DNA of 49,783 bases, from assembly GCA_002780285.1 (NCBI GenBank), contig PEVX01000019.1:1-49783 (forward strand), read 5' to 3'. Shown piece after piece: positions 3,727-45,720 of the stretch; the first letter of the stretch is position 1, and each line of letters opens with the position of its first letter. Below the pieces are notes generated by a model. That model had not been told where the DNA came from. It did no database searches and worked only from the letters and a program-made list of their open reading frames with translations. Source of the DNA: Candidatus Pacearchaeota archaeon CG06_land_8_20_14_3_00_35_12. Its GTDB lineage: Archaea; Nanobdellota; Nanobdellia; Pacearchaeales; PEVX01. Position numbers and translations under genes: made by a program.

Positions 3727-3841
3727 TGGGCCCAAGCGGGATCGAACCGCTGATCTTCTCCATATTGAGTTTTTTTCTTCCCAGGGCTTCTTCCTAAGAA
3801 GGCCTCGTCAAGGAGACGTCGTACCACTAGACCATAGGCCC
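3727..3841 (-). tRNA. tRNA-Val(GAC) with a ~43-nt intron in or next to the anticodon loop
   Basis: Minus strand reads GGGCCTA TG GTCT AGTGGTA CGAC G TCTCC TTGACGA [intron GGCCTTCTTAGGAAGAAGCCC...CTCAATAT] GGAGA AGATC AGCGG TTCGATC CCGCT TGGGCCC A. Acceptor, T-arm and anticodon stem pair correctly only once the insert is removed. The exact splice boundary is not resolved. Confidence 0.8.
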
Positions 3842-19934: not shown

Positions 19935-19975
19935 TTTGGTTATTTTAAATAGCAAATAGAATATTTAAATTTTCT

Positions 19976-23653: not shown

Positions 23654-24535
23654 ATGATAGACATTACAAGCGCATTGCTTATTGCATTAAGCCTCATTTA
23701 TGGTGGAATTGCAATTTATCAAGACATAAAAAAAAGAGAAGTTTCAAATTGGGTAAATTTCAGCTTCATAGCTCTGCTTTTTTTCGTGCTTTTATTTGAA
23801 TCAATAATAAAATTGGAATTTTACCCTATTTTAATCTGCCTCATAGCATTGGGAATTTATTTTGGAATGGCAAATTTATTCTATTATGGAAGAATTTTTG
23901 CAGGAGGTGATGCAAAACTGCTCATGGGCTTGGGAATTGCAGTCAGTTCAATCTCAATAACTGCACTTAATTTTCCAGCTTTTTTTAATACGCTTCTCTC
24001 ATTTATGGCAAACATCTTATTTTTAGGTTCTATATATGGGCTCGGCTATTCTCTTGTTCTTTATCTAACATACAAAGACAAAAAAAGAATTAAAAGATTA
24101 AGTGAAGAAATCAAAAATAAAAATAAAAAGATTTACACTACAGCACTAATATTCTCTTTGATTTTTATAGCACTATCGATTCTACTGAAAAATATTTATT
24201 TTTTCGTTCTTGCCATTTTAATCTTCATTTCTTCAAAACTTCTGATTTCATTAAAGGTGATTGAAAATTGCTGCCTGGTAAAAGCAATTCCTGTTTCACA
24301 ATTAAGAGAGGGAGACTGGCTCAGTATACCGTTTAAAATAAAAGGAAAAAAAGAGATTATTCCAACATGGGATGGGCTAACAAATAAAGATATTGAAAGA
24401 TTAAAGAAATACGAGAAAGGTAAAAAGATACTCATAAAAGAAGGCCTGCCCTTCACGCCAGTGATTGTTTCTGCATTTATTGTTTATCTTATTTGGGGCA
24501 ATTTATTATATTTGATAGTTTTATTAATGGCTTAA
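23654..24535 (+). CDS. A24-family prepilin/preflagellin peptidase (PibD/FlaK/EppA-like)
   Basis: Polytopic membrane protein. First catalytic Asp context GGIAIYQDIKKREVSNW, second IFAGGDAKLLMGLG (GxGD type). Extra soluble C-terminal region of about 80 aa. Confidence 0.8.
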   Translation: MIDITSALLIALSLIYGGIAIYQDIKKREVSNWVNFSFIALLFFVLLFESIIKLEFYPILICLIALGIYFGMANLFYYGRIFAGGDAKLLMGLGIAVSSISITALNFPAFFNTLLSFMANILFLGSIYGLGYSLVLYLTYKDKKRIKRLSEEIKNKNKKIYTTALIFSLIFIALSILLKNIYFFVLAILIFISSKLLISLKVIENCCLVKAIPVSQLREGDWLSIPFKIKGKKEIIPTWDGLTNKDIERLKKYEKGKKILIKEGLPFTPVIVSAFIVYLIWGNLLYLIVLLMA

Positions 24536-28592: not shown

Positions 28593-29342
28593 TTAGTTTA
28601 TTTTCAATGCAACAGCCATAAAAATCGGGGCATACCTGATAGAACTAACATCAGCAAAAAGATAATTTCTTGTTGTTGAAAAATTCAAAAGTAGATAACC
28701 CGAGCTAATAGATTTGTCAGAAACTATCCATCTGTCTGAATTCATTGAAATGCAGTTCAGAATATCATCTTTTGATTTGCATTCATTTATTTTTGAATTG
28801 ATTTTTGAATAAATTTCTGGAAAATCAGTAAAGTTAATTCTGATTTCTGTCAGATTGATTGAAAAACTTGGATTGTAGGAATAATTCAATTCAAAATCTC
28901 CTTCATTGCCATAAAATGTCAGATTTTTAGTATCTGCATTCATTTTCAAGATTTGATTATCCAATATTGGCTTGTAATCTGGAGAAATTTTCAGAAATTC
29001 AATAAACTTTCCATTTATTTGTTCTATTTTTGGGTTGCAATTATCATTCCAAATAACATGATTGTTATATATCTCGCAAGAATCATCAAAAACCGCGGCT
29101 TTTAAGGCTATTTGCTGAAATGTCTGCTGAAGTGAGATAAAAGAATGGTCTGTCGTATAAATTTGATCTGTTGTTTTGTTTAGATTGAGCTCCTGAACTT
29201 TCTGTGGAATCTCTATGCTGACTAAATTTTTCTTTTGCTCATTAGAAAAAACTACAATAACATAGATAGAAATGACTAAAAAAGTCAAAAACAGGCCAAT
29301 TGCAAAATAATGCCCTTTTTTGTTAGTCTTAAGGTTTTTCAT
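28593..29342 (-). CDS. Pilin-like protein with class III signal peptide (5th gene of a five-gene string)
   Basis: MKNLKTNKKG|HYFAIGLFLTFLVISIYVIVVF. TAA-A-ATG junction with the upstream gene. Confidence 0.6.
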   Translation of the reverse strand: MKNLKTNKKGHYFAIGLFLTFLVISIYVIVVFSNEQKKNLVSIEIPQKVQELNLNKTTDQIYTTDHSFISLQQTFQQIALKAAVFDDSCEIYNNHVIWNDNCNPKIEQINGKFIEFLKISPDYKPILDNQILKMNADTKNLTFYGNEGDFELNYSYNPSFSINLTEIRINFTDFPEIYSKINSKINECKSKDDILNCISMNSDRWIVSDKSISSGYLLLNFSTTRNYLFADVSSIRYAPIFMAVALKIN

Positions 29343-29343
29343 T

Positions 29344-29847
29344 TTATTTGTTAGGTTTTTCTATTCCAAAATTTATTGTTGCATTTTGATTAATGGAAAG
29401 AGGCAAGTATAAAATCAATTGAGATTCTTTTTTTGCAGAATATGCTGTTGAAACAACAGTTATTTTGTTGGTGCAATCAACATAAAAACCATAAAGTGCA
29501 TAATTTTCATAAACAGAATCAAAAATTTTCTTTGTTTCTGTTTCTAATAGCGGAACATAAGAGCTATCAATACAGGCAAGCTTGATTAAATTCGACATTG
29601 TCAGATTCTCATTTTTTCCATTTATTGCAACCTGCACAGGAGTTTCTAAATAACCTTGCAAAGTGACTAATGCCTCGGATTTTGTCAAAGAACTGATTGT
29701 TTCAGGAGAGATATTTTTGAAAACAAGACTTGGTGCAATTATCAGGAAAAAAGCTGCAAGTAAGATTCCTATAAAGATGGTAACAAAAAGATAAGTGAAT
29801 ACTTTACCTATTGCTCCTTTTTTGTTTTTTAATAAATTGCTTGTCAT
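29344..29847 (-). CDS. Pilin-like protein with class III signal peptide
   Basis: MTSNLLKNKKG|AIGKVFTYLFVTIFIGILLAAFFLII. TAA-A-ATG junctions on both sides. Confidence 0.6.
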   Translation of the reverse strand: MTSNLLKNKKGAIGKVFTYLFVTIFIGILLAAFFLIIAPSLVFKNISPETISSLTKSEALVTLQGYLETPVQVAINGKNENLTMSNLIKLACIDSSYVPLLETETKKIFDSVYENYALYGFYVDCTNKITVVSTAYSAKKESQLILYLPLSINQNATINFGIEKPNK

Positions 29848-29848
29848 T

Positions 29849-30358
29849 TTACATCAAATTTTTTTCTATTTTCAAAATATCTACATTCAAATCAAGAATA
29901 AAAGATGTATTTGTTGAATTTAGAAGATAGTATTTGTACTGCCGGCAAACTGGAAAATTAGTAATTTTTGTGCCTTTTTTCATTGCGGCACATAATGGCA
30001 ATACGTCTGTATTTCCCCATGAAAGTTCATTGATTTTTGACTGTGAGGAATTGTAAAGAACAGCAGAGATATAAAAATCCTTTTTCTGTTCTGCTGAAAA
30101 ACCAATGCATTTTTCAAAAATATCTATATTTAAATTGGATTCAACAAGATAAAGTTTATCTTGCATTTGAGTTGTTATGCATTTTACAAATCTATCAGAA
30201 ATAGCTGAGGCTTCTATATCGCGAACATCATAAGGCCTTGAATAAACAAAAGTTACAACCAAAACAATTGAGCCAGCTACAACAAGAAGCAAGAATATTC
30301 TATAAAACCATAGAATAATTTCTGCTCCAAGCGCGGCTTTTTTGTTTTGAAATATCAT
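29849..30358 (-). CDS. Pilin-like protein with class III signal peptide
   Basis: MIFQNKKA|ALGAEIILWFYRIFLLLVVAGSIVLVV (Glu at +5 if cleaved after KKA). TAA-A-ATG junctions. Confidence 0.6.
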   Translation of the reverse strand: MIFQNKKAALGAEIILWFYRIFLLLVVAGSIVLVVTFVYSRPYDVRDIEASAISDRFVKCITTQMQDKLYLVESNLNIDIFEKCIGFSAEQKKDFYISAVLYNSSQSKINELSWGNTDVLPLCAAMKKGTKITNFPVCRQYKYYLLNSTNTSFILDLNVDILKIEKNLM

Positions 30359-30359
30359 T

Positions 30360-30764
30360 TTAGATTTTGCAGATGATTATTGAAGGAAGTTTAACTTTAA
30401 GAGTGGATTTTTCTCCCTCTGTTCCCTGAGCAATTTGTGGAGAGGGAGATGAAGGAACTCCTTGTTCGCAATTTACAGGCAATATAGAAAAGAAAGAATA
30501 GCTTTTTTTGTCTACAAAAACATCTTTTTCTCCGAAAGTTATTGCAAATGGAGAAGTTATCCTGAATGTTGTTCCTGAACCGCTGAAATCTATGCTTAAT
30601 GCAAGCTCTTTTGTAAGCGCCTGCTGCTTGATTAAATTATTTTTTGCTGCATTGTTTACGAATAAGATCAATGATGAAAAAATAAAAATGATGAAAATTA
30701 ATTGGAATATCACATTATAAAGTTCTTCCTGCCCTTTTTTATTTTCAAGAAATTTTCTTTTCAT
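30360..30764 (-). CDS. Pilin-like protein with class III signal peptide
   Basis: MKRKFLENKKG|QEELYNVIFQLIFIIFIFSSLILFV. Confidence 0.6.
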   Translation of the reverse strand: MKRKFLENKKGQEELYNVIFQLIFIIFIFSSLILFVNNAAKNNLIKQQALTKELALSIDFSGSGTTFRITSPFAITFGEKDVFVDKKSYSFFSILPVNCEQGVPSSPSPQIAQGTEGEKSTLKVKLPSIIICKI

Positions 30765-30782
30765 TTTTAATTGATAAAATGT

Positions 30783-31688
30783 TTATGGAATGCTCTTTAT
30801 ATTGCCACATTTCTCATATAATTCAGTAGGAGTGTAAGGAACTAAATTCAGAATATAACAGCCCTCCAAATTTCCGTTGCAGTATGCAGACGCCATCACC
30901 CCTTGCATATGCTGAGAAAAAAGCTGAACTGGAAGGAGAACCATTCCAAACCTCAATAATCCCTTAGTTAAAGTTCCAATTCCCGCTCCCTTGAAAAGAA
31001 GTATATTCCCGCCCTCAAGACCAAGAGCAAGAGCAAGGTCTTTTTTTAGGGGCTCCCAAAAATCTTGTCCTTTTATTCCCATAAAAATCACGGCATAATC
31101 CTGTGAGGTTTTGACATATGGATCGATTGCTGTTTGAGTTGAGAGAGCAACACCTTTTTGATTTGCAAAATATTCACTATAATTAACATTCTTTCCAGGA
31201 ACGGGGGTAGTATCTAAATATTTTAGAAGATTAACTTGGGGTGTTTGTTGGCTTATTGATTTATCAAAATGAATAATAGAACAGATTAAGCAGGTAGTTT
31301 TGGGATTAAATCCAACAGAGGTCAGTTCAATCCATGCGCCTTCAGAAAGAAAATTATATTTTCCCTCTCCAAGCATCCACCAGCAATCATATAATGCTCC
31401 CGTAATTTCCTTATTTATCTGTGCTTCATTTGCTGTTTCAATTGAAATATTTTGGGTCTTGCATTTTAAGGGCATTTCCTTGAAGACATATTCTGTTCCT
31501 GGAATTTTATTTAATACTGGGAATTCTCCTGACTTTGCAATAACAGAGGCGTGGCATGTTTCTTTTGTGACTGTGTTTATGAATAGATATCTAAGCGGGC
31601 CTAAAAATGCAAAAACTACAAGCAATGCTGCGACGCTAATAATAATCCCGATTAAAACTTCTCTCTGTATACCTCTTTTATTCATCAT
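30783..31688 (-). CDS. Pilin-like protein with class III signal peptide (first gene of the string)
   Basis: The internal start at 31688 gives MMNKRG|IQREVLIGIIISVAALLVVFAF. The track start at 31727 would leave only 15 nt to the divergent gene. Confidence 0.6.
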   Translation of the reverse strand: MMNKRGIQREVLIGIIISVAALLVVFAFLGPLRYLFINTVTKETCHASVIAKSGEFPVLNKIPGTEYVFKEMPLKCKTQNISIETANEAQINKEITGALYDCWWMLGEGKYNFLSEGAWIELTSVGFNPKTTCLICSIIHFDKSISQQTPQVNLLKYLDTTPVPGKNVNYSEYFANQKGVALSTQTAIDPYVKTSQDYAVIFMGIKGQDFWEPLKKDLALALGLEGGNILLFKGAGIGTLTKGLLRFGMVLLPVQLFSQHMQGVMASAYCNGNLEGCYILNLVPYTPTELYEKCGNIKSIP

Positions 31689-31742: not shown

Positions 31743-33284
31743 ATGTTGTCAAAAATCAGTAAAAAAACCGCAAAAGGGCTTGCAGCTCTTGCAATTACTA
31801 CTGGACTTGTGGGAATTTTAGCTTCGCCTTCAAAAAGCGAAACAAAAGATGTTTTTGTTTCTGAACAATATTTAATAGACGTTGATAGCCCAAGAAAATA
31901 TCTTGGGCCGCTGCCAAAAGTTGGAGTTACAATTGAAATTGAAGGAGAAACCCAGCCAAACTGGTATGAGTTCATTTTTTCTTTTTATACAGATGGATGG
32001 GATAAAAAGAAGAACAGAATAAATGATTTTTATAATATTGATGTGCAAAGCTATCTTGATTTGGTTTATCCAAAACCAATGGATATTCCTGCTGATGTGA
32101 GGCAGAGAAGTCAGGTTCTTGATGTTGTAACAAAAAAAGGATTGAGCGGGCAAATGAAGCAGCTTTATCCGTTAAAAGATGCTCCATTTGCAAAAGCAAC
32201 AATTGATATTGGAAATTTCCTGGTAGACAGGGGAGAAGAAGTGCTTTTATGGAGCTTTGGCGGCCCGTTGCTTCCTGGAGCGGCAACGCTTACAAGAAAA
32301 CAAGGGCTTGAAAAAATAGTTCAGTTTATTATTGATACTGAAAATATTCCAAGAAGAGATGTTTTAATGCTGCTTGAACAAGACAATGAGATTGCAAATA
32401 TAAAATGGAATGTAGTTGATGAACTCGGAGCTAAAATTACTCCTGCAACACAAATTTATGTTCCTTTTATCTTCAGAAGTGAAAAAGAAAAGAAGTTTTG
32501 GGCTTTAATAAATTTGACAATAAAAAGAGAAACATTGGTTTCTAATTCCGACCAGGGGGTTGTTCGAAATGCTGTTTTTGAAATTGATTTAAACAAACCA
32601 TTGAAACAAATAACATATGATGATGTTAAAAATTATATTTTGCAGGAAAAGGCTGATAGGATATCAAAAATATATTCTGCTGAAAGAAATTTCGGGGAAG
32701 GAGAGTTGGATGCGTTAAAAATCTCAAGCTCAAACATAGATAATTCCCCAAGAAAGGAAAGAATTGCATTGGCGGTAAGAGAAGAAAGAAGAATAGAAAA
32801 GGGCTTTGATGAGAATTTTTATATTCCCCATTGGAGTTATGATTTCTATATTTTTCCAGGAGTTGGAAAAGAAGTAGGGCCAATTTTAAAGGATTCTGTG
32901 GATTGTGTTACCATCAATAAAATAGAAGGTTCTATTCCTATGCCAAAAAGCATTGATGTTTTGGTTGGCGATTTCAATGATGATTGGAATAATGATATTT
33001 TGGTTTCTTATGAGGGATTTTATTTTGGAGAAGGCGATAATTACAATACATTTCAATTTTTTAATCTTTATTTGAATGAAAGAGACAGATTTAAACGAAT
33101 TCAGGTTGGAGAATGGGATTTATTGACATATGCGCCAAAGATCGGGGGAAAAAAATGGAAAATGCTTGTAAATGGTATGAAAGAAAAAAACATTGAAAAA
33201 ATAAAAAAAGCGATTAAAGAAGAGATGAGTTCAAAGGCAGGCAATCCTGAAGAATATAAAATAATTTATAAGAAAAAAATCTGA
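31743..33284 (+). CDS. Secreted hypothetical protein (signal or class III-like N-terminus; one FG-GAP/VCBS-like segment)
   Basis: MLSKISKKTAKG|LAALAITTGLVGILASPSKSE. Later LVGDFNDDWNNDILVSY resembles an FG-GAP-type repeat. It is the only plus-strand gene between the two pilin operons. Confidence 0.5.
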   Translation: MLSKISKKTAKGLAALAITTGLVGILASPSKSETKDVFVSEQYLIDVDSPRKYLGPLPKVGVTIEIEGETQPNWYEFIFSFYTDGWDKKKNRINDFYNIDVQSYLDLVYPKPMDIPADVRQRSQVLDVVTKKGLSGQMKQLYPLKDAPFAKATIDIGNFLVDRGEEVLLWSFGGPLLPGAATLTRKQGLEKIVQFIIDTENIPRRDVLMLLEQDNEIANIKWNVVDELGAKITPATQIYVPFIFRSEKEKKFWALINLTIKRETLVSNSDQGVVRNAVFEIDLNKPLKQITYDDVKNYILQEKADRISKIYSAERNFGEGELDALKISSSNIDNSPRKERIALAVREERRIEKGFDENFYIPHWSYDFYIFPGVGKEVGPILKDSVDCVTINKIEGSIPMPKSIDVLVGDFNDDWNNDILVSYEGFYFGEGDNYNTFQFFNLYLNERDRFKRIQVGEWDLLTYAPKIGGKKWKMLVNGMKEKNIEKIKKAIKEEMSSKAGNPEEYKIIYKKKI

Positions 33285-33392: not shown

Positions 33393-34424
33393 TTATGCCA
33401 CTGCTGTTCCAGTAGCAGGGGATAAATAAATATTGCTTGCAACTGCAACTTTGATAACTCCTTCTGCCCAGTTTGCATCTGATGCATAAATACATGGTTT
33501 TCCTGCGTATGGCCCGCTGCATCCGGAAATCGCAAAAATCATTTGCTGGGGATCGTCTTTGTATTTCATAGCTTCGGTATATGCTGGGAGAGTTGAGATT
33601 ATACGCACAAAATCATTCACTGATTCGCATTGATCATGATATCTTTTAAATTCAGCTCCTCCTCTTGGTTTTCCACCAACAGTGCTGTATTCTGCAGACG
33701 GAACCCAATAACTAGTTCCAGCAGGCCCTGTTCCTTTAATTCCAAAAAGATTATACGCATAGGTTCCATCAAGGGGATTTTTTCCGCTTGCCAACCCGCT
33801 TGTTCCTCCTGCGCTTTCATGAACAGCAACGCCAATAATTACTTCAACAGGAACTCCTGAACTTGCAGAAGCATCGAGAATGCATTGTCCTAATCCTGCG
33901 AGAGCGGGATATTTTTTCTGAAGATATTCATCTAATTGTGTTTTTGAAGGGCGGTATGCTTTATATTCCCCAACAGGAGTCCCGCCAATATTATAATCTT
34001 TTTCTTCATTCAGCGCAACCAAGTAAAAATATTTTCCTTTTGGGGCAATTTGTTCTATAAATGGAAGTCCGCCTTTTAACAACGGCTTTGTAAGCTCTTT
34101 GCAAACAGTTTTTTCATTAGAGCAATCTGCTTTTCCAAATGAATCTGGGCAAATGCAAATTTTATTTCCTTCGCTCGAAAGCCACCAGCCTTGCGGGGTA
34201 TAAAGATACAAGAGTACACTATCTCCAATGTTCGAGGAATCTAAAGAATTGAACATTTCATCAAGTCTTGCGCTTGCTTGCTCTTTCTGTAGTTGCTGGC
34301 CATTCCAACAACTTGCCATAAAAGAAAATGCCCAAAAAAGCATCAATACAACTATGGCTCCGATTATTAAATCAAAAATAAATTCAAGCAAGGCAAATCC
34401 TCTTTTATTTTGCTTAAGTAACAT
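33393..34424 (-). CDS. Pilin-like N-terminus fused to a GH73/FlgJ-type peptidoglycan N-acetylglucosaminidase domain
   Basis: N-terminus MLLKQNKRG|FALLEFIFDLIIGAIVVLMLFWAF (checked against the DNA). C-terminal SSGVPVEVIIGVAVHESAGGTS...YNLFGIKGTG...SAEYSTVGGKPRGGAEFKRYHDQCESVNDFVRII...YASDANWAEGV matches the glucosaminidase-domain motifs as recalled for E. coli FlgJ (GVP..ILAQAALESGWG, YNLFG[IV]K, TTEYE...FRVY..., YATDP.Y). Confidence 0.8.
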   Translation of the reverse strand: MLLKQNKRGFALLEFIFDLIIGAIVVLMLFWAFSFMASCWNGQQLQKEQASARLDEMFNSLDSSNIGDSVLLYLYTPQGWWLSSEGNKICICPDSFGKADCSNEKTVCKELTKPLLKGGLPFIEQIAPKGKYFYLVALNEEKDYNIGGTPVGEYKAYRPSKTQLDEYLQKKYPALAGLGQCILDASASSGVPVEVIIGVAVHESAGGTSGLASGKNPLDGTYAYNLFGIKGTGPAGTSYWVPSAEYSTVGGKPRGGAEFKRYHDQCESVNDFVRIISTLPAYTEAMKYKDDPQQMIFAISGCSGPYAGKPCIYASDANWAEGVIKVAVASNIYLSPATGTAVA

Positions 34425-34469: not shown

Positions 34470-34661
34470 TTATGGCTGTGTTACATTAGTTGCCTTCCAT
34501 GCTCCGAAAATCTCTTTTATCTTGTTCAGGAGGTCTGGAAAAATATGCTGGCCGGTTGCCACCTGCCAGAAAATAAGAGTTATAACAAGGACTAAAACCA
34601 CGATAATAATTATGACAAGAGTATCGACAGGAAGCCCCTGCGCTTTTTTTCTTGAAAGCAT
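34470..34661 (-). CDS. Small pilin (63 aa) with class III signal peptide
   Basis: The ATG at 34661 gives MLSRKKA|QGLPVDTLVIIIIVVLVLVITLIFWQ... The track start at 34685 would overlap the upstream gene. Confidence 0.6.
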   Translation of the reverse strand: MLSRKKAQGLPVDTLVIIIIVVLVLVITLIFWQVATGQHIFPDLLNKIKEIFGAWKATNVTQP

Positions 34662-34675
34662 TTTAGAAAAGCAGA

Positions 34676-35017
34676 TCATGCACAAGTTATTACTGCATCA
34701 CAGATAGAGCCTAAAATTTGCTTGCATGTTTTAGAAACTGCTTTTCCTGTTGCAGTGTCCAAAACACTTACTTTCATGCAGCAGGCTGCCTCTTTAGATG
34801 TCAAAAATGCAGAATCACAATAAGCCTTGGCATCTGCATCAGTCATTGTCCCTGCGCCAAAAAAGCCAGCTATTCTTGGCCACACATTGCTCCATCCTAC
34901 TGTAAATCCAAAAATTAAAAAAACCATGACTAAAACAGCGAGAATAATTATTATAATTGTTGTAACATTAATTTCCTGTGCTTTCTTTTCTTTCAAGAAA
35001 CTTGAAATATTTTTCAT
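34676..35017 (-). CDS. Small pilin (113 aa) with class III signal peptide, Cys-rich globular part
   Basis: MKNISSFLKEKKA|QEINVTTIIIIILAVLVMVFLIFGF..., then 6 Cys in about 60 aa. Confidence 0.6.
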   Translation of the reverse strand: MKNISSFLKEKKAQEINVTTIIIIILAVLVMVFLIFGFTVGWSNVWPRIAGFFGAGTMTDADAKAYCDSAFLTSKEAACCMKVSVLDTATGKAVSKTCKQILGSICDAVITCA

Positions 35018-35082: not shown

Positions 35083-35949
35083 TTAAGCAGCAGGAGTTGT
35101 CGTTGGAGTTATCGTGCTTGAAACAAGATGCGTCGCAAGCTTCAAATATTCCACGCATCCTTTTCCAACTCCGCCTGTCTCACTTGTACATGAAATATTA
35201 GCATAATTTGGCAGAACTTTTTCCTGTATTGAGGAATTAAAAAAACAAAAAGGATTAATATGCAGGCTTGCTTTGCCTCCGAACACTGGATAGGCATAAA
35301 CCACAATAGCTTGTTTTTTTGTTGTTTCCCATGAATTTTGACATATTTGCGCATCTGTTAATGTTCCAGTAGCCAAAGATTCAATCACTTCAAAATGAAG
35401 ATGATCTTTTTGGACGAATGCAATTGTATCTCCTGCTTTTACAGGTTGTTTTTCTTTCACTTTGATTTTCAGTCCATCCAGATGAATATATCTTGTCCAA
35501 AAACCACCATGAGAGATTAAAACAATTCCGCCACTGTCTGTAAATGGATCAACATCCTCAACTGTTCCATCAGCTGCTGCAAAAACTGCTCTTCCTTTAG
35601 GAGCAGGAATATCTAGCCCCGCATGGCATCTGCTTGAATCATCTTTTGTAGTTTTTGTTTTGGAGGGAACAGTCTGTCGCAAAGCAAAACATGAACTAAT
35701 ATAAAGAGTAGGTGAATCAACAGGCCATAACAAACTGCCACTGATTCTTTCTCCTGTTGATCCTATTGGCAAATTTTCTGGGGAGATTAACTGATAATTC
35801 GCCGGCTCTTTGCTGTAGGTGTCTCCGCCAAGGTTGTTAATAAGATCTGAAAGATAGGGCTTTGCTTGCCATATGGCCCAAATAGTTATCGATATGACTG
35901 CCAATACAATAATTATTGTAGCAATTGTTGCTATGCCTTCTTCTGCCAT
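35083..35949 (-). CDS. M23/LytM-family peptidoglycan endopeptidase with N-terminal membrane anchor
   Basis: HxxxD (CHAGLDIPAP), GRAVFAAADGTVEDV, GGIVLISHGGFWTRYIHLDGLKIKVKEKQPVKAGDTIAF, HxH (DHLHFEV). N-terminal helix IATIATIIIVLAVISITIWAIW. Confidence 0.8.
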   Translation of the reverse strand: MAEEGIATIATIIIVLAVISITIWAIWQAKPYLSDLINNLGGDTYSKEPANYQLISPENLPIGSTGERISGSLLWPVDSPTLYISSCFALRQTVPSKTKTTKDDSSRCHAGLDIPAPKGRAVFAAADGTVEDVDPFTDSGGIVLISHGGFWTRYIHLDGLKIKVKEKQPVKAGDTIAFVQKDHLHFEVIESLATGTLTDAQICQNSWETTKKQAIVVYAYPVFGGKASLHINPFCFFNSSIQEKVLPNYANISCTSETGGVGKGCVEYLKLATHLVSSTITPTTTPAA

Positions 35950-35966: not shown

Positions 35967-36131
35967 TTACTTCCCAAATCTCAAAAAATCAGCGAATTTG
36001 TCAATAATGTTAAATCCCTTAACTCTTGCAAGATAAATAAACCAAATCATCAGCGCAAGAACTGCAAGAACAATAATCCATAATGCAATCTCATTCCATG
36101 CAAGCTGCCCTCTTTTATTCTTTATTTTCAT
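35967..36131 (-). CDS. 54-aa pilin with class III signal peptide (below track cutoff); candidate major pilin
   Basis: Manual translation gives MKIKNKRG|QLAWNEIALWIIVLAVLALMIWFIYLARVKGFNIIDKFADFLRFGK. Open from ATG 36131 to TAA 35969-35967, immediately downstream of the platform gene. Confidence 0.6.
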   Translation of the reverse strand: MKIKNKRGQLAWNEIALWIIVLAVLALMIWFIYLARVKGFNIIDKFADFLRFGK

Positions 36132-36162: not shown

Positions 36163-38310
36163 TTATGCAACTGCAGCAGAAACAGCAATTCCTGCGAGAA
36201 CAGTCAAAGCAACAATCGCAATCAAAGATATCACAATATATAATCCGATTCCTGTATAGAGATTTTTTGAAATTTCATAATCTTCTCCGAGTTCATCAAC
36301 TCCTGATTCCACAGATACTAAAGTTCTTGTCAATATGAAAATTATTTCAATAATATAAACTCCAACAGCAAGCTGCAGCCAATAAGGTGGAATCATTTTG
36401 CTTATGTCCATAATCTGAGTAATATTTGATACACTTCCAATTCCTGCGAACTGAGCCTCTCCTGAAACCTCTCCTGTTACAAACATTGTCTGCAGTTTGT
36501 TCACAATAGTAGTTATCATTGACGCAAGCCCAACAACAATTCCTGCAAGCACAGGCGCAAGGAATGTCATGTTTGACTTCATTCCAGACACTACATCTGC
36601 TAGCAAATCTCTCAATCTTTCATTTACTTTATGAATATTTTTTACATACTCGCTTATTGACATTAACGCACGAGCTGCAACCTGCAGCCCTTTTTTTACA
36701 GATTCTACAAGAATCTGCATGCTTGTTCTTATCAATGATGATGGAAAATAAATTATTGCGCCTCTTTGCTTGTTGAATATTGATTCTTCTACAGACATTC
36801 CTGTGCTTTGTATATTCGCATTCACTAATGAAAAAAATCTGGCTGTTGGCGTGCCTCTTAATGAGCTTGCGACTCTGCCAAATGCAATTTCAGCAGGCAA
36901 TCCATCACCTAAACGGTTTCCCAATTGGAACAAAGATGATGCAAATTCTGTTTCTAGCATTTTTGTCTGCTCTCGAGTTTTAATTAATTTTTTTGTTTTG
37001 GATCTGTACGCAATCGCAAAGAAAAGCGCGATAGATATTGGAATGAACAGGCTTAATAGCAAAGCCATAGGGCCGAAAGGGCCTGCTGTAACTCCTGAAA
37101 TTGTCTTGTAATCAAAAAATTTCATGTCTTGCAGGAAAGTAATTCCAAATTGCGCAAAAGAATAATCTTTTTTTATAAACAATGGAATTAAACCTATAAT
37201 AAAAAAAGGAATTGCAATGAAAAAGGCTTTTACATAATGTGATTTGCTTTTGTAATGTCCGTAATCTGGATTTAGTTCAAGCATTTCTGTTTCACCATAT
37301 CCGCCTGGGCGTTTTGCAAGAGCGCTAGAAGTAAGATAAAAAACAAAAAATGGAATAAGAATATTAAAAAGAAGAATGACATGCCACCATTTTATCGCGC
37401 CTTGAAGCAAAACAGATGCCAAAGGAAGCAAAGCAATTGCAAGTGTAGGCAAAACAATTCCAAGCATATAGATATTTGTCAGCGGATTTTTTACATCGTG
37501 GGCATAATGAAGCATTTTTTCATAAACTCCGTCAAGAATGACTGTTAGAGATTTTTCAAGAATCAGTATTCTATTCTCGTCGCTTGGCTCATAAAGGCTT
37601 GATTCAATCAAATGAAAAGCTTCTACGAATTCAATGCTGTAGTCTCTCCATGTTTCAAGATAAGCATCAAGAGCATCTTTTACAGTAGAATATTTTCCTG
37701 TTTCAACATTCCAAAATATCTTTTTTAAATCAAGTGCGAGCGGAGGCTGCAAATGCTGAGAAGCAAATTTAATTGCAAGCTCTAAATTTGAAGAATGACG
37801 CATGTGAATTACAATATAAAGAATGCAGGGCACCATTTGTGAGCTTGCCTTCAGTCTCCATCTCTGGGCAAACCTGGCCGGCAGATTGTAAGTGTAATAA
37901 TAAACAAAAACACAGATGACAAGCATCAGAAAAACAGCCAATGCTGAAAAAATTCCTGTTGCAAACCATATTCCAAGTATCAAAAGCAGAGAAGACACCA
38001 ATGTTACAACCAAAGCCAAAATTGAAAAAGCTGCTGCATCGCTCGGAGTGATATCAAGATGGGCGGTCTGCAGAGATTCTGAAAATTTTTTCTCGTCTTT
38101 TTCATTTATGCGCAATTTAAATGCTTTTCCAATGTTTTTGCACAATCTTTCATAAAAAGACAAAGTTGGCTGGGTTTCTTTTTTGAATTTCATATATTCC
38201 TGAGTATATCCAGAATCTTCTGCAATATCTGTATGCACTTGCCTTTCTATCTTCGCGCCGTATCTTTCTAATATATCTGATACTCTATCATCACTTTTTT
38301 TATTTGCCAT
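36163..38310 (-). CDS. Polytopic pilus platform protein (FlaJ/TadC/PilC family, two T2SS-F-like repeats)
   Basis: 715 aa and many TM helices. Two cytoplasmic helical modules resemble T2SS-F domains (LELAIKFASQHLQPPLALDLKKIFWNVETGKYSTVKDAL... and LFQLGNRLGDGLPAEIAFGRVASSLRGTPTARFFSLVNANIQSTGMSVEESI...). Directly downstream of the ATPase. Confidence 0.7.
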   Translation of the reverse strand: MANKKSDDRVSDILERYGAKIERQVHTDIAEDSGYTQEYMKFKKETQPTLSFYERLCKNIGKAFKLRINEKDEKKFSESLQTAHLDITPSDAAAFSILALVVTLVSSLLLILGIWFATGIFSALAVFLMLVICVFVYYYTYNLPARFAQRWRLKASSQMVPCILYIVIHMRHSSNLELAIKFASQHLQPPLALDLKKIFWNVETGKYSTVKDALDAYLETWRDYSIEFVEAFHLIESSLYEPSDENRILILEKSLTVILDGVYEKMLHYAHDVKNPLTNIYMLGIVLPTLAIALLPLASVLLQGAIKWWHVILLFNILIPFFVFYLTSSALAKRPGGYGETEMLELNPDYGHYKSKSHYVKAFFIAIPFFIIGLIPLFIKKDYSFAQFGITFLQDMKFFDYKTISGVTAGPFGPMALLLSLFIPISIALFFAIAYRSKTKKLIKTREQTKMLETEFASSLFQLGNRLGDGLPAEIAFGRVASSLRGTPTARFFSLVNANIQSTGMSVEESIFNKQRGAIIYFPSSLIRTSMQILVESVKKGLQVAARALMSISEYVKNIHKVNERLRDLLADVVSGMKSNMTFLAPVLAGIVVGLASMITTIVNKLQTMFVTGEVSGEAQFAGIGSVSNITQIMDISKMIPPYWLQLAVGVYIIEIIFILTRTLVSVESGVDELGEDYEISKNLYTGIGLYIVISLIAIVALTVLAGIAVSAAVA

Positions 38311-38348: not shown

Positions 38349-40643
38349 TTAATCTACTCTGGCCCTTTTTATTTCATCCTTGAGCCATTTCTGCCATCTA
38401 GGCAGGACTTCCTTGCTTAAAGGAACACCAATTTCTTCGCGAATAGAAGATGATATCTGATGAAATACTGAATTTGATTTTACAACAAAAGGAGCTTCTA
38501 AAAGTTCTGGAATCTTGGCTTTAATTGAAGCATTCAACAATTCTTCTTTTATTTTTGCTCTTAATAAAATATTATCCCACAGAGCATCCCAATTTCCAGC
38601 CCAGCCTTTTACATTAGAGGCAATATCTTTCAAAACATCTGACTCTCCAACCATTAATTCATCTGTTGCTTCAAGCTCGTCTTTTTCAATATTATATGTT
38701 AGCAAATCTGCAAAACCTCTTTCTTCAAAAGGGTCTTTTGTCCAATGTTTCCTGACTTCTGTGATTTGCAGCATTCTTCTCCAAGAATGCATTCCATCGG
38801 GGCTTTTTATTGGATTTGCAACAGCGATGATGTCTGTTGCTTTGAATGAAGTTACTGGAACATTCAAATCATTTACAACTCTGTCAAAAATCGCATATGG
38901 TGAAGCCCCATGAATTGTTCCTGCAACAACATTTGCCAATGCTCCTACTCTCATTGCTTCGTATAAAGCACGAGCTTCTTCACTTCTAACCTCTCCAACA
39001 ATCAAACATGAATCACCCAAACGCAGAGATGTTCTGATTCCTTCATCAGCTGGAACCTCTGTTGTTGCTTTCAACAATGCTGCTCTGACTTTCATTCTCA
39101 CGATATCATAATTTAATTTTCTAATTGCTTCTACAGGAAGTTCTAAAGTATCTTCAACAGTTATTATGCGATATTTTGGCATTATTTCAAGCATAAGGCT
39201 TCCAAGCAATGATGTTTTTCCAGAACTTCTTGTTCCTGCAATCAACATTGTTCTTGAACCATCTACTAAAAAACTCAGCAGTCCTGCCGCGAGAGGATTT
39301 ATCATTCTTTGTTTTATGAATAATGGAAGAGTCCATGGCTTATCACGATGTCTTCTAATAGCATATGCCAATCCGTCGGGTGCAAGTGGCTGCTGCATTA
39401 CTGCAATTCTTGCCCTTACCCTAGATAAAATTAAATCCGTATCGAGAACAGGATTTGCTTCATCCAAAGGACGTCCAGAAATCATTCTGAATTTTGCGGC
39501 CCATCCATCAACATCCTGAATGCTTGAGATTATATTTGTAGAACACTCATCAAAATCCTGATGCCTTACAAAAATTGGGGTTTGTCCCACTGGAGAATTT
39601 ATTACTATGTCCTGCAGTCTCTCATCTTGCAGAAGAACTTCAATCAAACCAAAGCCAATGGTATGTCGCACTAAAATTGTTGCAAGTCTTGTTAATTGTT
39701 TATATGTTAAAGTTTTTTTCTTGCTCTCACTCAATTCTGTCAGTAAATCTCTGGATATATTGAAAAAAACATTTCTTATTCTTTCAGGATCTGTAAATTC
39801 TTCTGCTTTTGGCTGATGTTCTGTTAAAACCTCTCTGGCGAGATTCAATAAGGTCGCCTCATCATCTGAAAGTACAAATTCTTGAGGAATCAAATGATAA
39901 ATTGGAACAATGCTGTTAGGAACTTTGAAAATAGTGACTGTGCTTTTATCAACTCCTTCTCCAATGACATATTCATCAAGAAGTTGAGCTTCTGGAGGAA
40001 TTGAAGCCATCAATCTTGTAAATGTAAAATTAGGAACAGATATCGGTCTGAACAATTTCTTATACAGTTCGCGATTTCCTACATGCAAACCTTCAATTTC
40101 CTGCATTACAGACTTCAAAATTCTTGTTTCTGCAAGCATAGACGCAATTTTTTCAAGAAGTCTAATATAGCGAGTCTCGCAAGAGGCACACTCATCAGGC
40201 ATTTTCTCTGCATTTATCCGTTCATCACGCAATAATCTCTTTGTTTCAACATAACAGCCAATAGGGTCTTGTTTCAACAAAAGCAAAACAAGATATCTCA
40301 GAGAATCATATCTTTGAGGCAGGCATCGCTGGCATTCTAATGTTAATTCTGAAACAGAAAGAACTTTTTCCTGCTTCAGGAGATAATTATAAAGCTGGGC
40401 AATTTCAAAAAGCATAGAAATCTGCTGCAGGTCATATGAATAATTTTGATTATGCTGCACAAAAACAATCCTTGAAACAGTTGGGGATTCAAGCAAAGCG
40501 TCGACAGTGCGGGCCATGCATACTGCTGAATCTGCAAGAGATGGAACAAATGGGGCACCAATGTAATTGATATACATAACTTCCTGCCCGGCTTCACGGA
40601 TTATTTCATAATTATAGATGGCAGTTTCTGGTTTGAAGATCAT
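38349..40643 (-). CDS. Type IV pilus/archaellum-type secretion ATPase (FlaI/PilB/GspE/VirB11 superfamily) with a long N-terminal region
   Basis: Walker A AGTRSSGKTSLL, Asp box IITVEDTLELP, Walker B CLIVGEVRSEEARALYEAMRVG, His box VAGTIHGASP. About 450 aa precede the ATPase core. Confidence 0.85.
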   Translation of the reverse strand: MIFKPETAIYNYEIIREAGQEVMYINYIGAPFVPSLADSAVCMARTVDALLESPTVSRIVFVQHNQNYSYDLQQISMLFEIAQLYNYLLKQEKVLSVSELTLECQRCLPQRYDSLRYLVLLLLKQDPIGCYVETKRLLRDERINAEKMPDECASCETRYIRLLEKIASMLAETRILKSVMQEIEGLHVGNRELYKKLFRPISVPNFTFTRLMASIPPEAQLLDEYVIGEGVDKSTVTIFKVPNSIVPIYHLIPQEFVLSDDEATLLNLAREVLTEHQPKAEEFTDPERIRNVFFNISRDLLTELSESKKKTLTYKQLTRLATILVRHTIGFGLIEVLLQDERLQDIVINSPVGQTPIFVRHQDFDECSTNIISSIQDVDGWAAKFRMISGRPLDEANPVLDTDLILSRVRARIAVMQQPLAPDGLAYAIRRHRDKPWTLPLFIKQRMINPLAAGLLSFLVDGSRTMLIAGTRSSGKTSLLGSLMLEIMPKYRIITVEDTLELPVEAIRKLNYDIVRMKVRAALLKATTEVPADEGIRTSLRLGDSCLIVGEVRSEEARALYEAMRVGALANVVAGTIHGASPYAIFDRVVNDLNVPVTSFKATDIIAVANPIKSPDGMHSWRRMLQITEVRKHWTKDPFEERGFADLLTYNIEKDELEATDELMVGESDVLKDIASNVKGWAGNWDALWDNILLRAKIKEELLNASIKAKIPELLEAPFVVKSNSVFHQISSSIREEIGVPLSKEVLPRWQKWLKDEIKRARVD

Positions 40644-45659: not shown

Positions 45660-45720
45660 TTTTCTTTCACAACAATAATGTATAAAAAGATTATTGCAGA
45701 CAAATAAAATTGTTAAAATG

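What the first reader, a model, noticed from the sequence alone, without database searches (positions are those of the whole stretch)
33393..34424. GH73 (FlgJ/LytD-type) glucosaminidase fused to a bacterial-style type IV pilin N-terminus (KRG|FALLEF, Glu at +5)
The N-terminus MLLKQNKRG FALLEFIFDLIIGAIVVLMLFW reproduces the bacterial type IV pilin or pseudopilin consensus G|F-T-L-[IL]-E, including the Glu5 that is a hallmark of filament-incorporated subunits. A Cys-rich middle region of about 130 aa follows, then a C-terminal glucosaminidase domain. That domain retains both acidic residues in the conserved contexts (AVHESAGG and SAEYS) along with YNLFGIKG, FKRY and YASD. A murein glycosidase built as a pilin subunit would be presented on or at the tip of the filament. 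I do not recall this enzyme-on-pilus design being described for archaea.
Basis: partly seen in the sequence, partly recalled or inferred. Interest (0 to 1): 0.85.

Follow-up and report, generated by a model that had tools for sequence, protein, structure and literature searches.

The report
Archaeal pilin-like carrier of murein hydrolases
A tiny Pacearchaeota-type archaeon encodes, inside its pilus gene cluster, a pilin-like protein ending in an enzyme that cuts bacterial cell wall; related genomes carry other wall-cutting enzymes on the same carrier at the same spot, which suggests a pilus-linked tool for attacking bacteria.

Summary
ORF 33393-34424 (-) encodes 343 aa in three parts. First comes a prepilin-type leader (NKRG|FALLEF). 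Then comes a 56-residue helix plus a four-Cys beta head. Last is a GH73 domain (Pfam E 3.4e-13) with both catalytic Glu residues aligned to Salmonella FlgJ.

The gene is not an assembly artefact. It sits in a conserved Pacearchaeota type IV filament locus with an ATPase, a 715-aa membrane protein, about nine other NK[KR][GA] prepilin-like genes and an M23 peptidase. An A24 prepilin peptidase lies 9 kb away.

The new finding is that the first 160 residues are a widespread carrier module. It has 693 relatives among cluster representatives. In the best 150, the only recognisable fused domains are murein hydrolases: SLT, GH73, VanY/M15, 3D and Amidase_2. In syntenic loci the head is exchanged at a fixed junction.

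The most likely function is a pilin-like subunit that displays a murein hydrolase on or beside a pilus to breach a bacterial partner's wall. Cleavage, filament incorporation and enzyme activity remain untested. Structure search did not link the head to any solved pilin. I found no description of this in the searchable literature. It is a new variant of known kinds: bacterial modular pilins and archaeal peptidoglycan hydrolases.

The parts
33393..34424 (-). Whole gene: pilin-like carrier fused to a GH73 murein hydrolase (343 aa)
   Evidence: ORF listing. Identical protein P0001 is on record on 9 contigs. Coordinates checked by translation.
34398..34424 (-). Leader MLLKQNKRG (res 1-9), a predicted class III (prepilin) signal with cleavage after Gly9
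   Evidence: The N-K-[KR]-[GA] leader is shared by 12 window ORFs and by 132 of 150 family members. It aligns with the RNKKG leader of the Geobacter PilA precursor at marginal E 0.018. Cleavage itself is inferred.
34236..34397 (-). Alpha-1 helix FALLEF...NSLDS (res 10-63): hydrophobic N-terminal half with Glu at +5 and Asp at +9, amphipathic C-terminal half
   Evidence: The AF2 model of res 1-160 has pLDDT 90.3 with a helix at 8-63. Glu at +5 is found in 50 and at +6 in 34 of 132 relatives.
33984..34235 (-). Beta-rich head of the carrier module (res 64-147) with conserved P77, W80, C90, C92, C101, C108
   Evidence: Eight predicted strands at high confidence. The listed columns are nearly invariant. 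There is no Pfam family for it and no significant Foldseek match.
33882..33983 (-). Linker and junction (res 148-181). The carrier-to-effector boundary lies here
   Evidence: pLDDT is low after about res 150. BLAST alignments between GH73-type and SLT-type relatives stop at about res 168-171.
33444..33881 (-). GH73 (Glucosaminidase, PF01832) catalytic domain, res 182-327. Catalytic E203 is the codon at 33816-33818 and E245 at 33690-33692. YASD Tyr313
38349..40643 (-). Secretion/assembly ATPase (764 aa) of the FlaI/TadA/VirB11 class
   Evidence: Pfam T2SSE E 2.7e-14. NCBIfam partial matches to TadA-family and FlaI models, E 7e-36 and 1.2e-35, both below equivalog cut-offs.
36163..38310 (-). 715-aa polytopic membrane protein, the presumed platform protein
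   Evidence: It is adjacent to the ATPase. It is 60-62% identical in syntenic loci. More than 4,400 homologues exist, many labelled Ca. Pacearchaeota, and three are named 'Flp pilus assembly protein TadB' by JGI. No Pfam or PDB match was found, so the role is inferred.
35967..36131 (-). 54-aa helix-only prepilin-like protein (KNKRG|QLAWNE), a candidate filament subunit
   Evidence: It is conserved in L001 and L005.
35083..35949 (-). M23 metallopeptidase (288 aa) with an N-terminal hydrophobic helix, a second murein hydrolase in the same gene run
   Evidence: Pfam Peptidase_M23 E 1e-17. HAGLD and HLH motifs are intact. In L008 the same slot holds an M15/VanY peptidase.
34676..35017 (-). 113-aa prepilin-like protein (KEKKA|QEINV) with a Cys-rich C-terminus
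34470..34661 (-). 63-aa prepilin-like protein (SRKKA|QGLPV)
28593..31685 (-). Five further prepilin-like genes (300, 134, 169, 167 and 249 aa), each with an NK[KR][GA] leader, conserved in syntenic loci
   Evidence: Orthology by BLAST: the roughly 300-aa gene gives E 1e-28 to 1e-53 in four loci.
23654..24535 (+). A24 type IV prepilin peptidase (293 aa), the predicted processing enzyme
   Evidence: Pfam Peptidase_A24 E 5.1e-8, 33.7 bits against a 26.5 cut-off. Weak archaeal A24 C-terminal domain hits. The same A24 plus HIT gene pair lies near the locus in L010 and L011.

Best explanation
The gene encodes a modular, pilin-like surface protein of a Pacearchaeota-type DPANN archaeon (small-celled archaea thought to live as symbionts).

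Shown here:
- It has three parts: a prepilin-type leader and hydrophobic helix, a conserved four-Cys beta head (together the 'carrier'), and a GH73 murein glycosidase with an intact active site.
- It sits in a conserved type IV filament locus, next to an M23 murein endopeptidase.
- The carrier is a large family whose only recognisable fusion partners are murein hydrolases.
- The hydrolase head is exchanged at a fixed junction in orthologous loci.

Inferred:
- The precursor inserts into the membrane through its helix, and the A24 peptidase encoded 9 kb away cuts after Gly9.
- The ATPase and platform machinery lifts the mature protein, with the small helix-only pilins, into a pilus or short pseudopilus. 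Because of its bulky head it would be a minor or tip subunit.
- On contact with a bacterium, GH73 cuts the glycan strands (E203/E245) while M23 cuts the peptide cross-links.
- This locally breaches the partner's sacculus for attachment, access or feeding.
- Head swapping (SLT, GH73, amidase, DD-peptidase, 3D) would adapt the tool to different wall chemistries or inhibitors.
For: GH73 identity and catalytic residues.

Leader: the NK[KR][GA] motif is shared by 12 window ORFs, 9 of them in the locus. It is found in 132 of 150 relatives, and Glu is the modal residue at +5 and +6.

Machinery: A24 prepilin peptidase is in the window and recurs near the locus in L010 and L011. ATPase.

Structure of the carrier: pLDDT 90.3, with a helix at 8-63 starting at the predicted cleavage site, then a beta head. 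The best three PDB sequence hits of the carrier profile are type IV pilin precursors (Geobacter PilA), but only at E 0.018-0.09.

Carrier family: 693 relatives at E<=1e-3. In the best 150 the Pfam hits at E<=1e-3 are SLT 21, Glucosaminidase 9, VanY/M15 6, 3D 4, Amidase_2 3, Phage_lysozyme2 1, plus one DUF5715 on a VanY/M15-type protein. By C-terminal BLAST cluster, 44 of the 99 proteins of at least 200 aa fall in groups whose representative carries a recognisable hydrolase.

Orthologous slot: the flanking genes are orthologous in the window, L001, L006, L005 and L008. The slot holds GH73 (window, L001, L003), SLT (L006), Amidase_2 (L005) or a bare carrier (L008).

Junction: the SLT-type protein P0021 is 57% identical to the GH73-type P0003 and P0005 over the carrier only, and the alignment ends at res 168-171.

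Second hydrolase slot: M23 in the window and M15 in L008.

Target: amidase and DD-peptidase heads act on the peptide stem of murein, which argues that the target is bacterial peptidoglycan (established enzymology).

Organism: every locus with informative neighbours is archaeal and labelled relatives are Ca. Pacearchaeota.

Precedents: bacterial modular pilins (PMC8179133); archaeal peptidoglycan hydrolases that kill bacteria (PMC12352652); murein transglycosylases in Pacearchaeota and Woesearchaeota read as signs of bacterial hosts (PMC8204110; PMC9723730).
Against: There is no experimental evidence for cleavage, filament incorporation or enzyme activity.

Foldseek finds no significant match of the carrier model to any solved pilin or archaellin (best E 0.22, generic beta sandwiches). 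The pilin assignment therefore rests on the leader, the helix, the overall architecture and the gene context.

The bacterial prepilin HMMs (PF07963, TIGR02532) do not hit the protein. Glu +5 is absent from the four closest homologues.

The same leader also occurs on large proteins outside the locus, 622 and 369 aa. It may therefore serve general surface anchoring rather than mark filament subunits.

The platform protein could not be tied to FlaJ/TadC by Pfam or PDB searches.

The M23 protein's N-terminus lacks the Lys/Arg at -2.

Whether this organism lacks a murein wall of its own was not tested.
Confidence: 0.55

Rival explanations
1. Membrane-anchored or bindosome-like ectoenzyme. The N-terminal helix, cleaved or not, simply holds the hydrolase at the archaeal surface, perhaps in a non-filamentous assembly built by the same machinery. 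This would resemble the Sulfolobus sugar-binding proteins that carry class III signals. The enzyme would act on bacterial wall at the contact zone without being a pilus subunit.
For: The same NK[KR][GA] leader is on 12 ORFs, including 622-aa and 369-aa proteins outside the locus. The carrier has no structural match to solved pilins. There is precedent for non-pilin class III substrates and the bindosome (PMC3387779). The M23 neighbour has only a plain hydrophobic N-terminus.
Against: The carrier is a conserved fold of about 150 residues with a 56-residue helix, far more than an anchor needs. It occupies a fixed slot among small pilin genes in a conserved filament locus. Glu is enriched at +5/+6, a residue linked to subunit packing in bacterial pilins (established knowledge).
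Confidence: 0.25
2. Secretion substrate. The filament machinery works like a type II secretion pseudopilus, or the linker is cut after export, so that a soluble GH73 is released into the surroundings as a diffusible bacteriolysin.
For: The linker at about res 148-165 is poorly ordered. Secreted archaeal peptidoglycan hydrolases that kill bacteria exist, including a PF01832 enzyme (PMC12352652).
Against: Those known secreted enzymes use Sec or Tat signals and carry wall-binding domains. Here there is no wall-binding domain and the hydrolase is always fused to the helix-bearing carrier. A diffusible enzyme would be costly for an ultra-small cell (inference).
Confidence: 0.1
3. Self-directed remodelling enzyme. 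Like FlgJ or the specialised lytic transglycosylases of bacterial secretion and pilus systems, it opens the producer's own wall so that the filament can pass.
For: GH73 and SLT enzymes do this job in bacterial flagella and pili (established knowledge). The best PDB and NCBIfam similarities are to FlgJ. The gene sits inside the filament locus.
Against: The producer is an archaeon, and no murein synthesis gene is in the 50-kb window. Published surveys treat murein hydrolases in Pacearchaeota and Woesearchaeota as directed at bacteria. Rapid exchange among five hydrolase classes at one slot suits a variable external target better than a fixed housekeeping task.
Confidence: 0.05
4. The target is a glycan other than murein. 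The GH73-like domain would cut chitin, an archaeal surface glycan or pseudomurein of an archaeal host.
For: Activity was not measured. The protein scores far below all NCBIfam equivalog cut-offs. All cultivated DPANN archaea have archaeal hosts (PMC11291902 abstract).
Against: Both catalytic Glu residues and the YATD-type Tyr of murein-active GH73 enzymes are kept. The sister heads (Amidase_2, VanY/M15) and the neighbouring M23 act on the murein peptide stem.
Confidence: 0.05

Closest known systems
Bacterial modular type IV pilins (Streptococcus sanguinis PilB and PilC; survey of more than 1,200 modular pilins in Raynaud et al. 2021, PMC8179133)
   Same: [quoted passage not shown] The design is proposed to present that module at the filament tip, and predicted peptidase modules (S74, M26) are already listed there.
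   Different: Those proteins are bacterial and are defined by the IPR012902 methylation motif, which is not detected here. Neither the GH73 signature (IPR002901) nor the lysozyme-like superfamily (IPR023346) was found in the supplementary architecture lists held as text. Here the host is an archaeon, the carrier head is a distinct four-Cys fold, and the partners are, as far as recognisable, only murein hydrolases.
[quoted passage not shown]
   Same: These are archaeal non-pilin functional proteins exported with a prepilin-type signal. They are processed by the prepilin peptidase and depend on pilus-assembly homologues (PMC3387779; PMC4858521).
   Different: The cargo there is a solute-binding protein for uptake, not a lytic enzyme. 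No conserved carrier head with swappable C-terminal domains is described.
FlgJ and other GH73 N-acetylglucosaminidases (Salmonella FlgJ 5DN4/5DN5, Sphingomonas FlgJ 2ZYC, S. aureus AtlE 4PI7, Listeria Auto 3FI7)
   Same: The catalytic fold and the ES...EY...YATD-type residues are shared. FlgJ is also physically tied to a filament-building machine.
   Different: The protein scores 38.6 bits against a 193-bit FlgJ equivalog cut-off. It has no rod-capping domain. The producer has no known murein, so the target is presumably foreign.
Secreted archaeal peptidoglycan hydrolases that kill bacteria (Halogranum Woldo and Danwoldo; Strock et al. 2025, PMC12352652)
   Same: These are archaeal enzymes aimed at bacterial murein, and Danwoldo carries the same Pfam domain PF01832.
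   Different: They are haloarchaeal, use a Tat signal, and pair the catalytic domain with peptidoglycan-binding domains. Only Sec and Tat signals are reported for the archaeal enzymes in that survey, and the words pilin and pili do not occur in the paper.
Large murein transglycosylase (GH23/SLT) proteins of Pacearchaeota and Woesearchaeota (Castelle et al. 2021, PMC8204110; Vigneron et al. 2022, PMC9723730)
   Same: They occur in the same lineages and prompt the same inference: murein-degrading surface proteins hint at bacterial hosts or prey.
   Different: Those are proteins of up to about 3,000 aa. Neither paper contains the words pilin or pili, so no link to a pilin-like carrier or a filament locus is made. 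Here the proteins are 300-420 aa on a defined carrier at a fixed locus position.
Myxococcus xanthus Kil system (Tad-like apparatus for contact-dependent prey killing; Seef et al. 2021, PMC8460266)
   Same: A Tad/archaeal-type filament machine is required for killing on contact, with local degradation of prey peptidoglycan.
   Different: That system is bacterial and its wall-degrading effector is still unknown. Here the candidate effector is written into a pilin-like subunit, but no killing has been observed.

Membership tests
GH73 / Pfam Glucosaminidase (PF01832) | Profile match above the curated gathering score | tested here: met
   50.8 bits against a 30.2 cut-off, E 3.4e-13, res 182-327.
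GH73 / Pfam Glucosaminidase (PF01832) | Catalytic general-acid Glu in the ES motif | tested here: met
   E203 in AVHES aligns with the ES of Salmonella FlgJ and is invariant in 13 of 13 family members.
GH73 / Pfam Glucosaminidase (PF01832) | Second acidic residue (EY motif) and conserved Tyr of the YATD motif | tested here: met
   E245 in SAEY aligns with the TTEY of FlgJ and is at least 90% conserved. Y313 is invariant.
GH73 / Pfam Glucosaminidase (PF01832) | Hydrolysis of the murein glycan backbone | not testable with these tools
   This needs recombinant enzyme and sacculi.
FlgJ (NCBIfam TIGR02541 equivalog) | Whole-protein score above the equivalog cut-off, plus the N-terminal rod-binding domain | tested here: not met
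   38.6 bits against a 193 cut-off, and the match covers the hydrolase part only.
Bacterial type IV pilin / pseudopilin (PF07963 N_methyl, TIGR02532 GFxxxE) | Match to the prepilin cleavage/methylation motif models | tested here: not met
   No hit was listed at E<=0.01 in Pfam or at E<=10 in NCBIfam. For comparison, a neighbour gene in the archaeal locus L007 does pass both models.
Bacterial type IV pilin / pseudopilin (PF07963 N_methyl, TIGR02532 GFxxxE) | Gly at -1, hydrophobic +1, Glu at +5, and at least 20 hydrophobic residues | tested here: met
   KRG|FALLEFIFDLIIGAIVVLMLFW is read directly from the sequence. Glu is the modal residue at +5 across the family but is absent from the four nearest homologues.
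Archaeal class III (prepilin/prearchaellin) signal peptide | Positively charged residue at -2, Gly or Ala at -1, then a hydrophobic helix (criteria in PMC3387779) | tested here: met
   Arg at -2 and Gly at -1. The criteria are quoted. The same motif occurs in 12 window ORFs and in 132 of 150 relatives.
Archaeal class III (prepilin/prearchaellin) signal peptide | A cognate A24 prepilin peptidase is encoded by the genome | tested here: met
   Window 23654-24535, PF01478 at 33.7 bits against a 26.5 cut-off, with weak archaeal A24 C-terminal domain hits.
Archaeal class III (prepilin/prearchaellin) signal peptide | Actual cleavage after Gly9 | not testable with these tools
   This needs N-terminal sequencing or an in vitro peptidase assay.
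Type IV pilin fold | Long N-terminal alpha-1 helix carrying a globular beta-rich head | tested here: met
   AF2 model with pLDDT 90.3 and pTM 0.75: helix at 8-63, then eight strands at 69-147.
Type IV pilin fold | Detectable similarity to a solved pilin or archaellin | tested here: inconclusive
   Foldseek gives best E 0.22 and no pilin in the top 50. Profile against PDB sequences: the top three hits are Geobacter PilA precursors at E 0.018-0.09, and archaellins score E 0.15-1.2.
Type IV filament (archaeal pilus/Tad-like) system | Assembly ATPase of the FlaI/TadA/VirB11 class in the locus | tested here: met
   PF00437 E 2.7e-14. TadA-family and FlaI partial matches at E about 1e-35.
Type IV filament (archaeal pilus/Tad-like) system | FlaJ/TadC/PilC-type platform protein | tested here: inconclusive
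   The 715-aa polytopic protein next to the ATPase has no Pfam or PDB match. JGI names three homologues 'Flp pilus assembly protein TadB'.
Type IV filament (archaeal pilus/Tad-like) system | Several pilin-like genes with class III signals clustered with the machinery | tested here: met
   Nine such genes lie between 28.6 and 36.1 kb, and they are conserved in syntenic loci.
Type IV filament (archaeal pilus/Tad-like) system | Incorporation of this protein into a filament | not testable with these tools
   This needs filament purification, cryo-EM or labelling.
Modular pilin, as defined by Raynaud et al. 2021 | [quoted passage not shown] | tested here: not met
   The extra domain (GH73) is present, but the models corresponding to the IPR012902 motif (PF07963, TIGR02532) give no hit. 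The design is the same but formal membership fails.

The most novel reading that the evidence does not exclude
The conserved Pacearchaeota filament locus would be a dedicated organelle for breaching bacterial walls, a 'lytic pilus'. Its pilin-like carrier would display interchangeable murein-hydrolase heads (GH73, SLT, amidase, DD-peptidase, 3D), helped by M23/M15 peptidases. This would give the first concrete molecular mechanism and marker for DPANN archaea that live on or prey on bacteria rather than on archaea. The exchange of heads would record an arms race with the wall chemistry of their bacterial partners.
Probability: 0.4. Interest if true: 0.9.

Novelty: new variant of a known kind. 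Interest (0 to 1): 0.75.

Why it matters
Pacearchaeota and Woesearchaeota are among the most abundant uncultivated archaea. Their hosts are unknown. All cultivated DPANN archaea have archaeal hosts (PMC11291902). The idea that some live on bacteria rests on scattered murein-hydrolase genes.

This finding turns that hint into a defined, testable system:
- a conserved filament locus;
- a recognisable carrier module of about 150 residues, with 693 relatives among cluster representatives;
- a fixed slot where five classes of murein hydrolase are exchanged.

It offers three practical things. The carrier is a search handle for finding such archaea and for predicting partner wall types from the head domain. 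The proteins are small and soluble-domain constructs can be made for biochemistry. The carrier is also a target for labelling in enrichment cultures.

It would extend the 'modular pilin' principle from bacteria to archaea and from adhesion to enzymatic attack. It also supplies a candidate answer to what a Tad-like contact-killing machine might carry, which is still unknown for the Myxococcus Kil system.

Tried and rejected
1. Glu +5 as chance. From the four closest homologues alone I first judged Glu +5 to be an accident of this one sequence. The family-wide analysis overturned this: Glu is modal at +5/+6.

2. Full-length AF2 model from a 5-sequence alignment. Confidence was too low to use (pLDDT 53.6), beyond showing the helix, strands and GH73 order. 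It was replaced by a carrier-only model built on 52 sequences.

3. Foldseek of the carrier against PDB. No significant hit and no pilins, so I make no structural homology claim.

4. The search for homologous proteins with the carrier profile. It returned only 5 proteins because of its word index, so the census rests on the best 150 of the exhaustive search.

5. Platform protein. Single-sequence and 5-sequence-profile searches of PDB, and Pfam at E<=10, gave nothing. Only source names and position support the role.

6. Frameshift or assembly chimera. Rejected: the identical protein is on 9 contigs and the same architecture appears in independent assemblies.

7. Carrier family borrowed from bacteria, or contigs that are really from Candidate Phyla Radiation (ultra-small) bacteria. 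Rejected for every locus with informative neighbours. These carry RadA, RPA, Kae1, aEF-1 beta, eIF-1A or Archease.

8. Prior description. No match turned up in searches combining DPANN, Pacearchaeota and Woesearchaeota with pilin, peptidoglycan, hydrolase and transglycosylase terms, nor in a 2026 preprint census of archaeal type IV filament systems. Absence from this library is not proof of absence.
Full report
**What is there.** The minus-strand ORF 33393..34424 encodes 343 aa beginning MLLKQNKRGFALLEFIFDLIIGAIVVLMLFW. The intergenic 45 nt upstream are AT-rich, with a TTTTAAATA about 20-27 nt before the ATG. That is compatible with an archaeal TATA element, though this is an inference.

Pfam places a Glucosaminidase (GH73) domain at residues 182-327 (E 3.4e-13, above the gathering score). 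NCBIfam gives only partial, sub-threshold matches to FlgJ, GsmA and related hydrolases. phmmer against PDB aligns AVHES/E203 and SAEY/E245 with the ES and EY motifs of Salmonella FlgJ. In 13 family members E203 and Y313 are invariant and E245 is at least 90% conserved. Even a poor full-length model retrieves FlgJ, AtlE, Auto and other GH73 structures. The enzyme half of the finding is therefore solid at the sequence level.

**The organism and the locus.** The window is archaeal. It carries RadA, RPA, ribosomal proteins S3Ae and S13/S15, GINS, aIF2-alpha, PAC2 and an intron-containing tRNA. The only named genome with a GH73-type relative is a Ca. Pacearchaeota genome assembled from a metagenome. 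Dozens of 52-64% identical homologues of the neighbouring membrane protein are labelled Ca. Pacearchaeota.

The gene is the last in a co-directional run:
- ATPase of the FlaI/TadA/VirB11 class (38349-40643);
- 715-aa polytopic membrane protein (36163-38310);
- 54-aa helix-only prepilin-like protein;
- M23 peptidase with intact HxxxD and HxH motifs;
- 113-aa and 63-aa prepilin-like proteins;
- the GH73 protein.

Five more prepilin-like genes follow at 28.6-31.7 kb. An A24 prepilin peptidase lies at 23654-24535. Twelve ORFs of the window start with N-K-[KR]-[GA] followed by a hydrophobic helix. Sec-type signals also occur in the window, for example at 31743-33284 and 44877-45734, so this leader is a distinct class and not the default.

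**Is the N-terminus a pilin signal?** Published criteria say that a positive charge at -2 marks archaeal prepilin-peptidase substrates, and that Glu +5 is nearly universal in bacterial pilins but often absent in archaea (PMC3387779). This protein has both: R at -2, G at -1 and E at +5.

The four closest homologues lack Glu +5. In the wider family, however, Glu is the modal residue at +5 (50 of 132) and at +6 (34 of 132). The bacterial prepilin HMMs do not hit the protein. Curiously, a neighbour gene in another archaeal locus of the family (L007, archaeal by a Kae1 equivalog) does pass them, with GKKA|FTLIEMLIV.

A carrier-only AlphaFold model built on 52 sequences is confident (pLDDT 90.3, pTM 0.75). 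It shows a helix from residue 8 to 63, beginning at the predicted cleavage site, followed by eight strands. This is the overall shape of a type IV pilin. Foldseek finds no significant match to solved pilins. The profile-to-PDB sequence hits to Geobacter PilA precursors are only marginal (E 0.018-0.09). I therefore call it pilin-like on the basis of signal, architecture and context, not on demonstrated homology of the head.

**The main new result.** A profile of residues 1-156 searched against 1.84 billion cluster representatives finds 693 proteins at E<=1e-3 and 83 at E<=1e-10. Of the best 150, 51 are shorter than 200 aa (bare carriers) and 83 are at least 260 aa.

Scanning all 150 against Pfam gives, at E<=1e-3, only murein hydrolases: SLT 21, Glucosaminidase 9, VanY/Peptidase_M15 6, 3D 4, Amidase_2 3 and Phage_lysozyme2 1. 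There is also one DUF5715, a family that in the one case checked (P0060) matches within the VanY/M15 region. Clustering of the C-terminal parts agrees: 22 SLT, 9 GH73, 5 3D, 5 VanY/M15 and 3 Amidase_2. Two 10-member groups and a number of singletons have no Pfam match. Conserved carrier positions are A50, P77, W80 and four Cys. No Pfam family covers the carrier.

**Head exchange at an orthologous slot.** The flanking genes of the window are orthologous to those in L001, L006, L005 and L008. The membrane protein is 60-62% identical, and the downstream gene of about 300 aa gives E 1e-28 to 1e-53. In that slot:
- the window, L001 and L003 have carrier-GH73;
- L006 has carrier-SLT;
- L005 has carrier-Amidase_2;
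- L008 has a bare carrier.

L010 (VanY/M15) and L011 (unassigned head) show the same neighbourhood with RPA, RadA, HIT and A24.

The SLT-type protein P0021 is 57% identical to the GH73-type P0003 and P0005 across the carrier, and the alignment stops at residues 168-171. This is domain replacement at a defined junction. A second slot, just after the small helix-only pilin, holds M23 in the window and an M15/VanY peptidase in L008.

**Interpretation.** The most economical reading is a pilin-like carrier that places a murein hydrolase on, at the tip of, or beside a type IV filament, with a murein endopeptidase alongside. It would act on the wall of a bacterial partner.

The target is inferred to be true murein because the sister heads and neighbours include enzymes specific for the peptide stem (amidase, DD-peptidases, M23). 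It is inferred to be foreign because the producer is an archaeon of a lineage for which murein hydrolases have already been read as signs of bacterial hosts.

The steps not shown are cleavage, extraction into a filament, position within the filament, catalytic activity and the identity of the partner. The chief rival is that the helix merely anchors the enzyme at the cell surface, perhaps in a bindosome-like assembly. This rival is favoured by the use of the same leader on large proteins elsewhere in the window and by the lack of structural matches to pilins. Release as a soluble lysin, self-directed wall remodelling and a non-murein substrate are less likely, for the reasons given under rival explanations.

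**Relation to what is known.** Bacterial modular pilins share the design, including predicted peptidase modules (PMC8179133). Neither the GH73 signature (IPR002901) nor the lysozyme-like superfamily (IPR023346) was found in the supplementary architecture lists held as text, and those proteins are defined by a motif not detected here.

Archaeal murein hydrolases that kill bacteria are established, including a PF01832 enzyme, but that enzyme carries a Tat signal and wall-binding domains (PMC12352652). Large SLT proteins of Pacearchaeota and Woesearchaeota are described in papers that never mention pilins or pili. A 2026 preprint census of archaeal type IV filament systems mentions neither hydrolases nor peptidoglycan. 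The Myxococcus Kil Tad-like machine kills on contact with local wall degradation, and its effector is unknown.

I found no description of a pilin-like carrier family with exchangeable murein-hydrolase heads in archaea. The library is incomplete, so this is not proof of novelty.

**Verdict.** The finding is broader than reported. I rate it a new variant of known kinds, with interest 0.75.

Noticed in passing
window 35083-35949 (-): An M23 metallopeptidase (Pfam E 1e-17; HAGLD and HLH motifs intact) with an N-terminal hydrophobic helix lies in the same gene run as the GH73 protein. In L008 the equivalent slot holds an M15/VanY peptidase. In L001, L003, L005 and L006 the protein in that slot has no Pfam match above noise.
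   Followed up: partly
window 1738-3606, 18097-19026, 21150-22259 (all -): Three larger proteins outside the filament locus (622, 309 and 369 aa) carry the same N-K-[KR]-[GA] plus helix leader. The 309-aa protein, and the neighbouring 305-aa protein at 19038-19955, also have a lipobox-like [IL]GADGC just after the helix.
   Followed up: no
L007 7296-8105 (+): An archaeal contig (Kae1 equivalog above cut-off) encodes a 269-aa protein with a genuine bacterial-type prepilin motif, GKKA|FTLIEMLIV. It passes TIGR02532 and PF07963 and also carries DUF1559. It lies directly upstream of a carrier-family gene.
   Followed up: partly
window 36163-38310 (-): The 715-aa polytopic membrane protein next to the ATPase has no Pfam or PDB match. 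Even so, it is one of the best conserved genes of the locus, with more than 4,400 homologues at 52-64% identity, many labelled Ca. Pacearchaeota. JGI calls a few 'Flp pilus assembly protein TadB'.
   Followed up: partly
window 38349-40643 (-): The assembly ATPase is 764 aa, but the T2SSE core matches only residues 412-588. Roughly 300 N-terminal residues are unassigned.
   Followed up: no
window 35967-36131 (-): A 54-aa helix-only prepilin-like protein ends in DFLRFGK. The same C-terminal motif (DFLRFGR) is in the 59-aa protein at the same position in L001. It is a candidate major subunit resembling Flp or Geobacter-type short pilins.
   Followed up: partly
window 3727-3841 (-): Rfam reports a 115-nt tRNA match that ARAGORN did not report. 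It is presumably an intron-containing archaeal tRNA.
   Followed up: no
window 31743-33284 (+): A 513-aa gene with a Sec-like signal and no Pfam match, on the opposite strand, interrupts the adjacency between the carrier gene and the roughly 300-aa gene that is seen in L001, L005, L006 and L008.
   Followed up: no
L003 15208-17673; L011 5052-7913: Related contigs carry inteins in RadA (L003) and in RtcB (L011). The window's RadA (25964-26962) has none.
   Followed up: no
window 23654-24535 (+) and 24539-25117 (-): The A24 prepilin peptidase is paired with a HIT-family gene. The same pair recurs near the filament locus in L010 and L011.
   Followed up: partly
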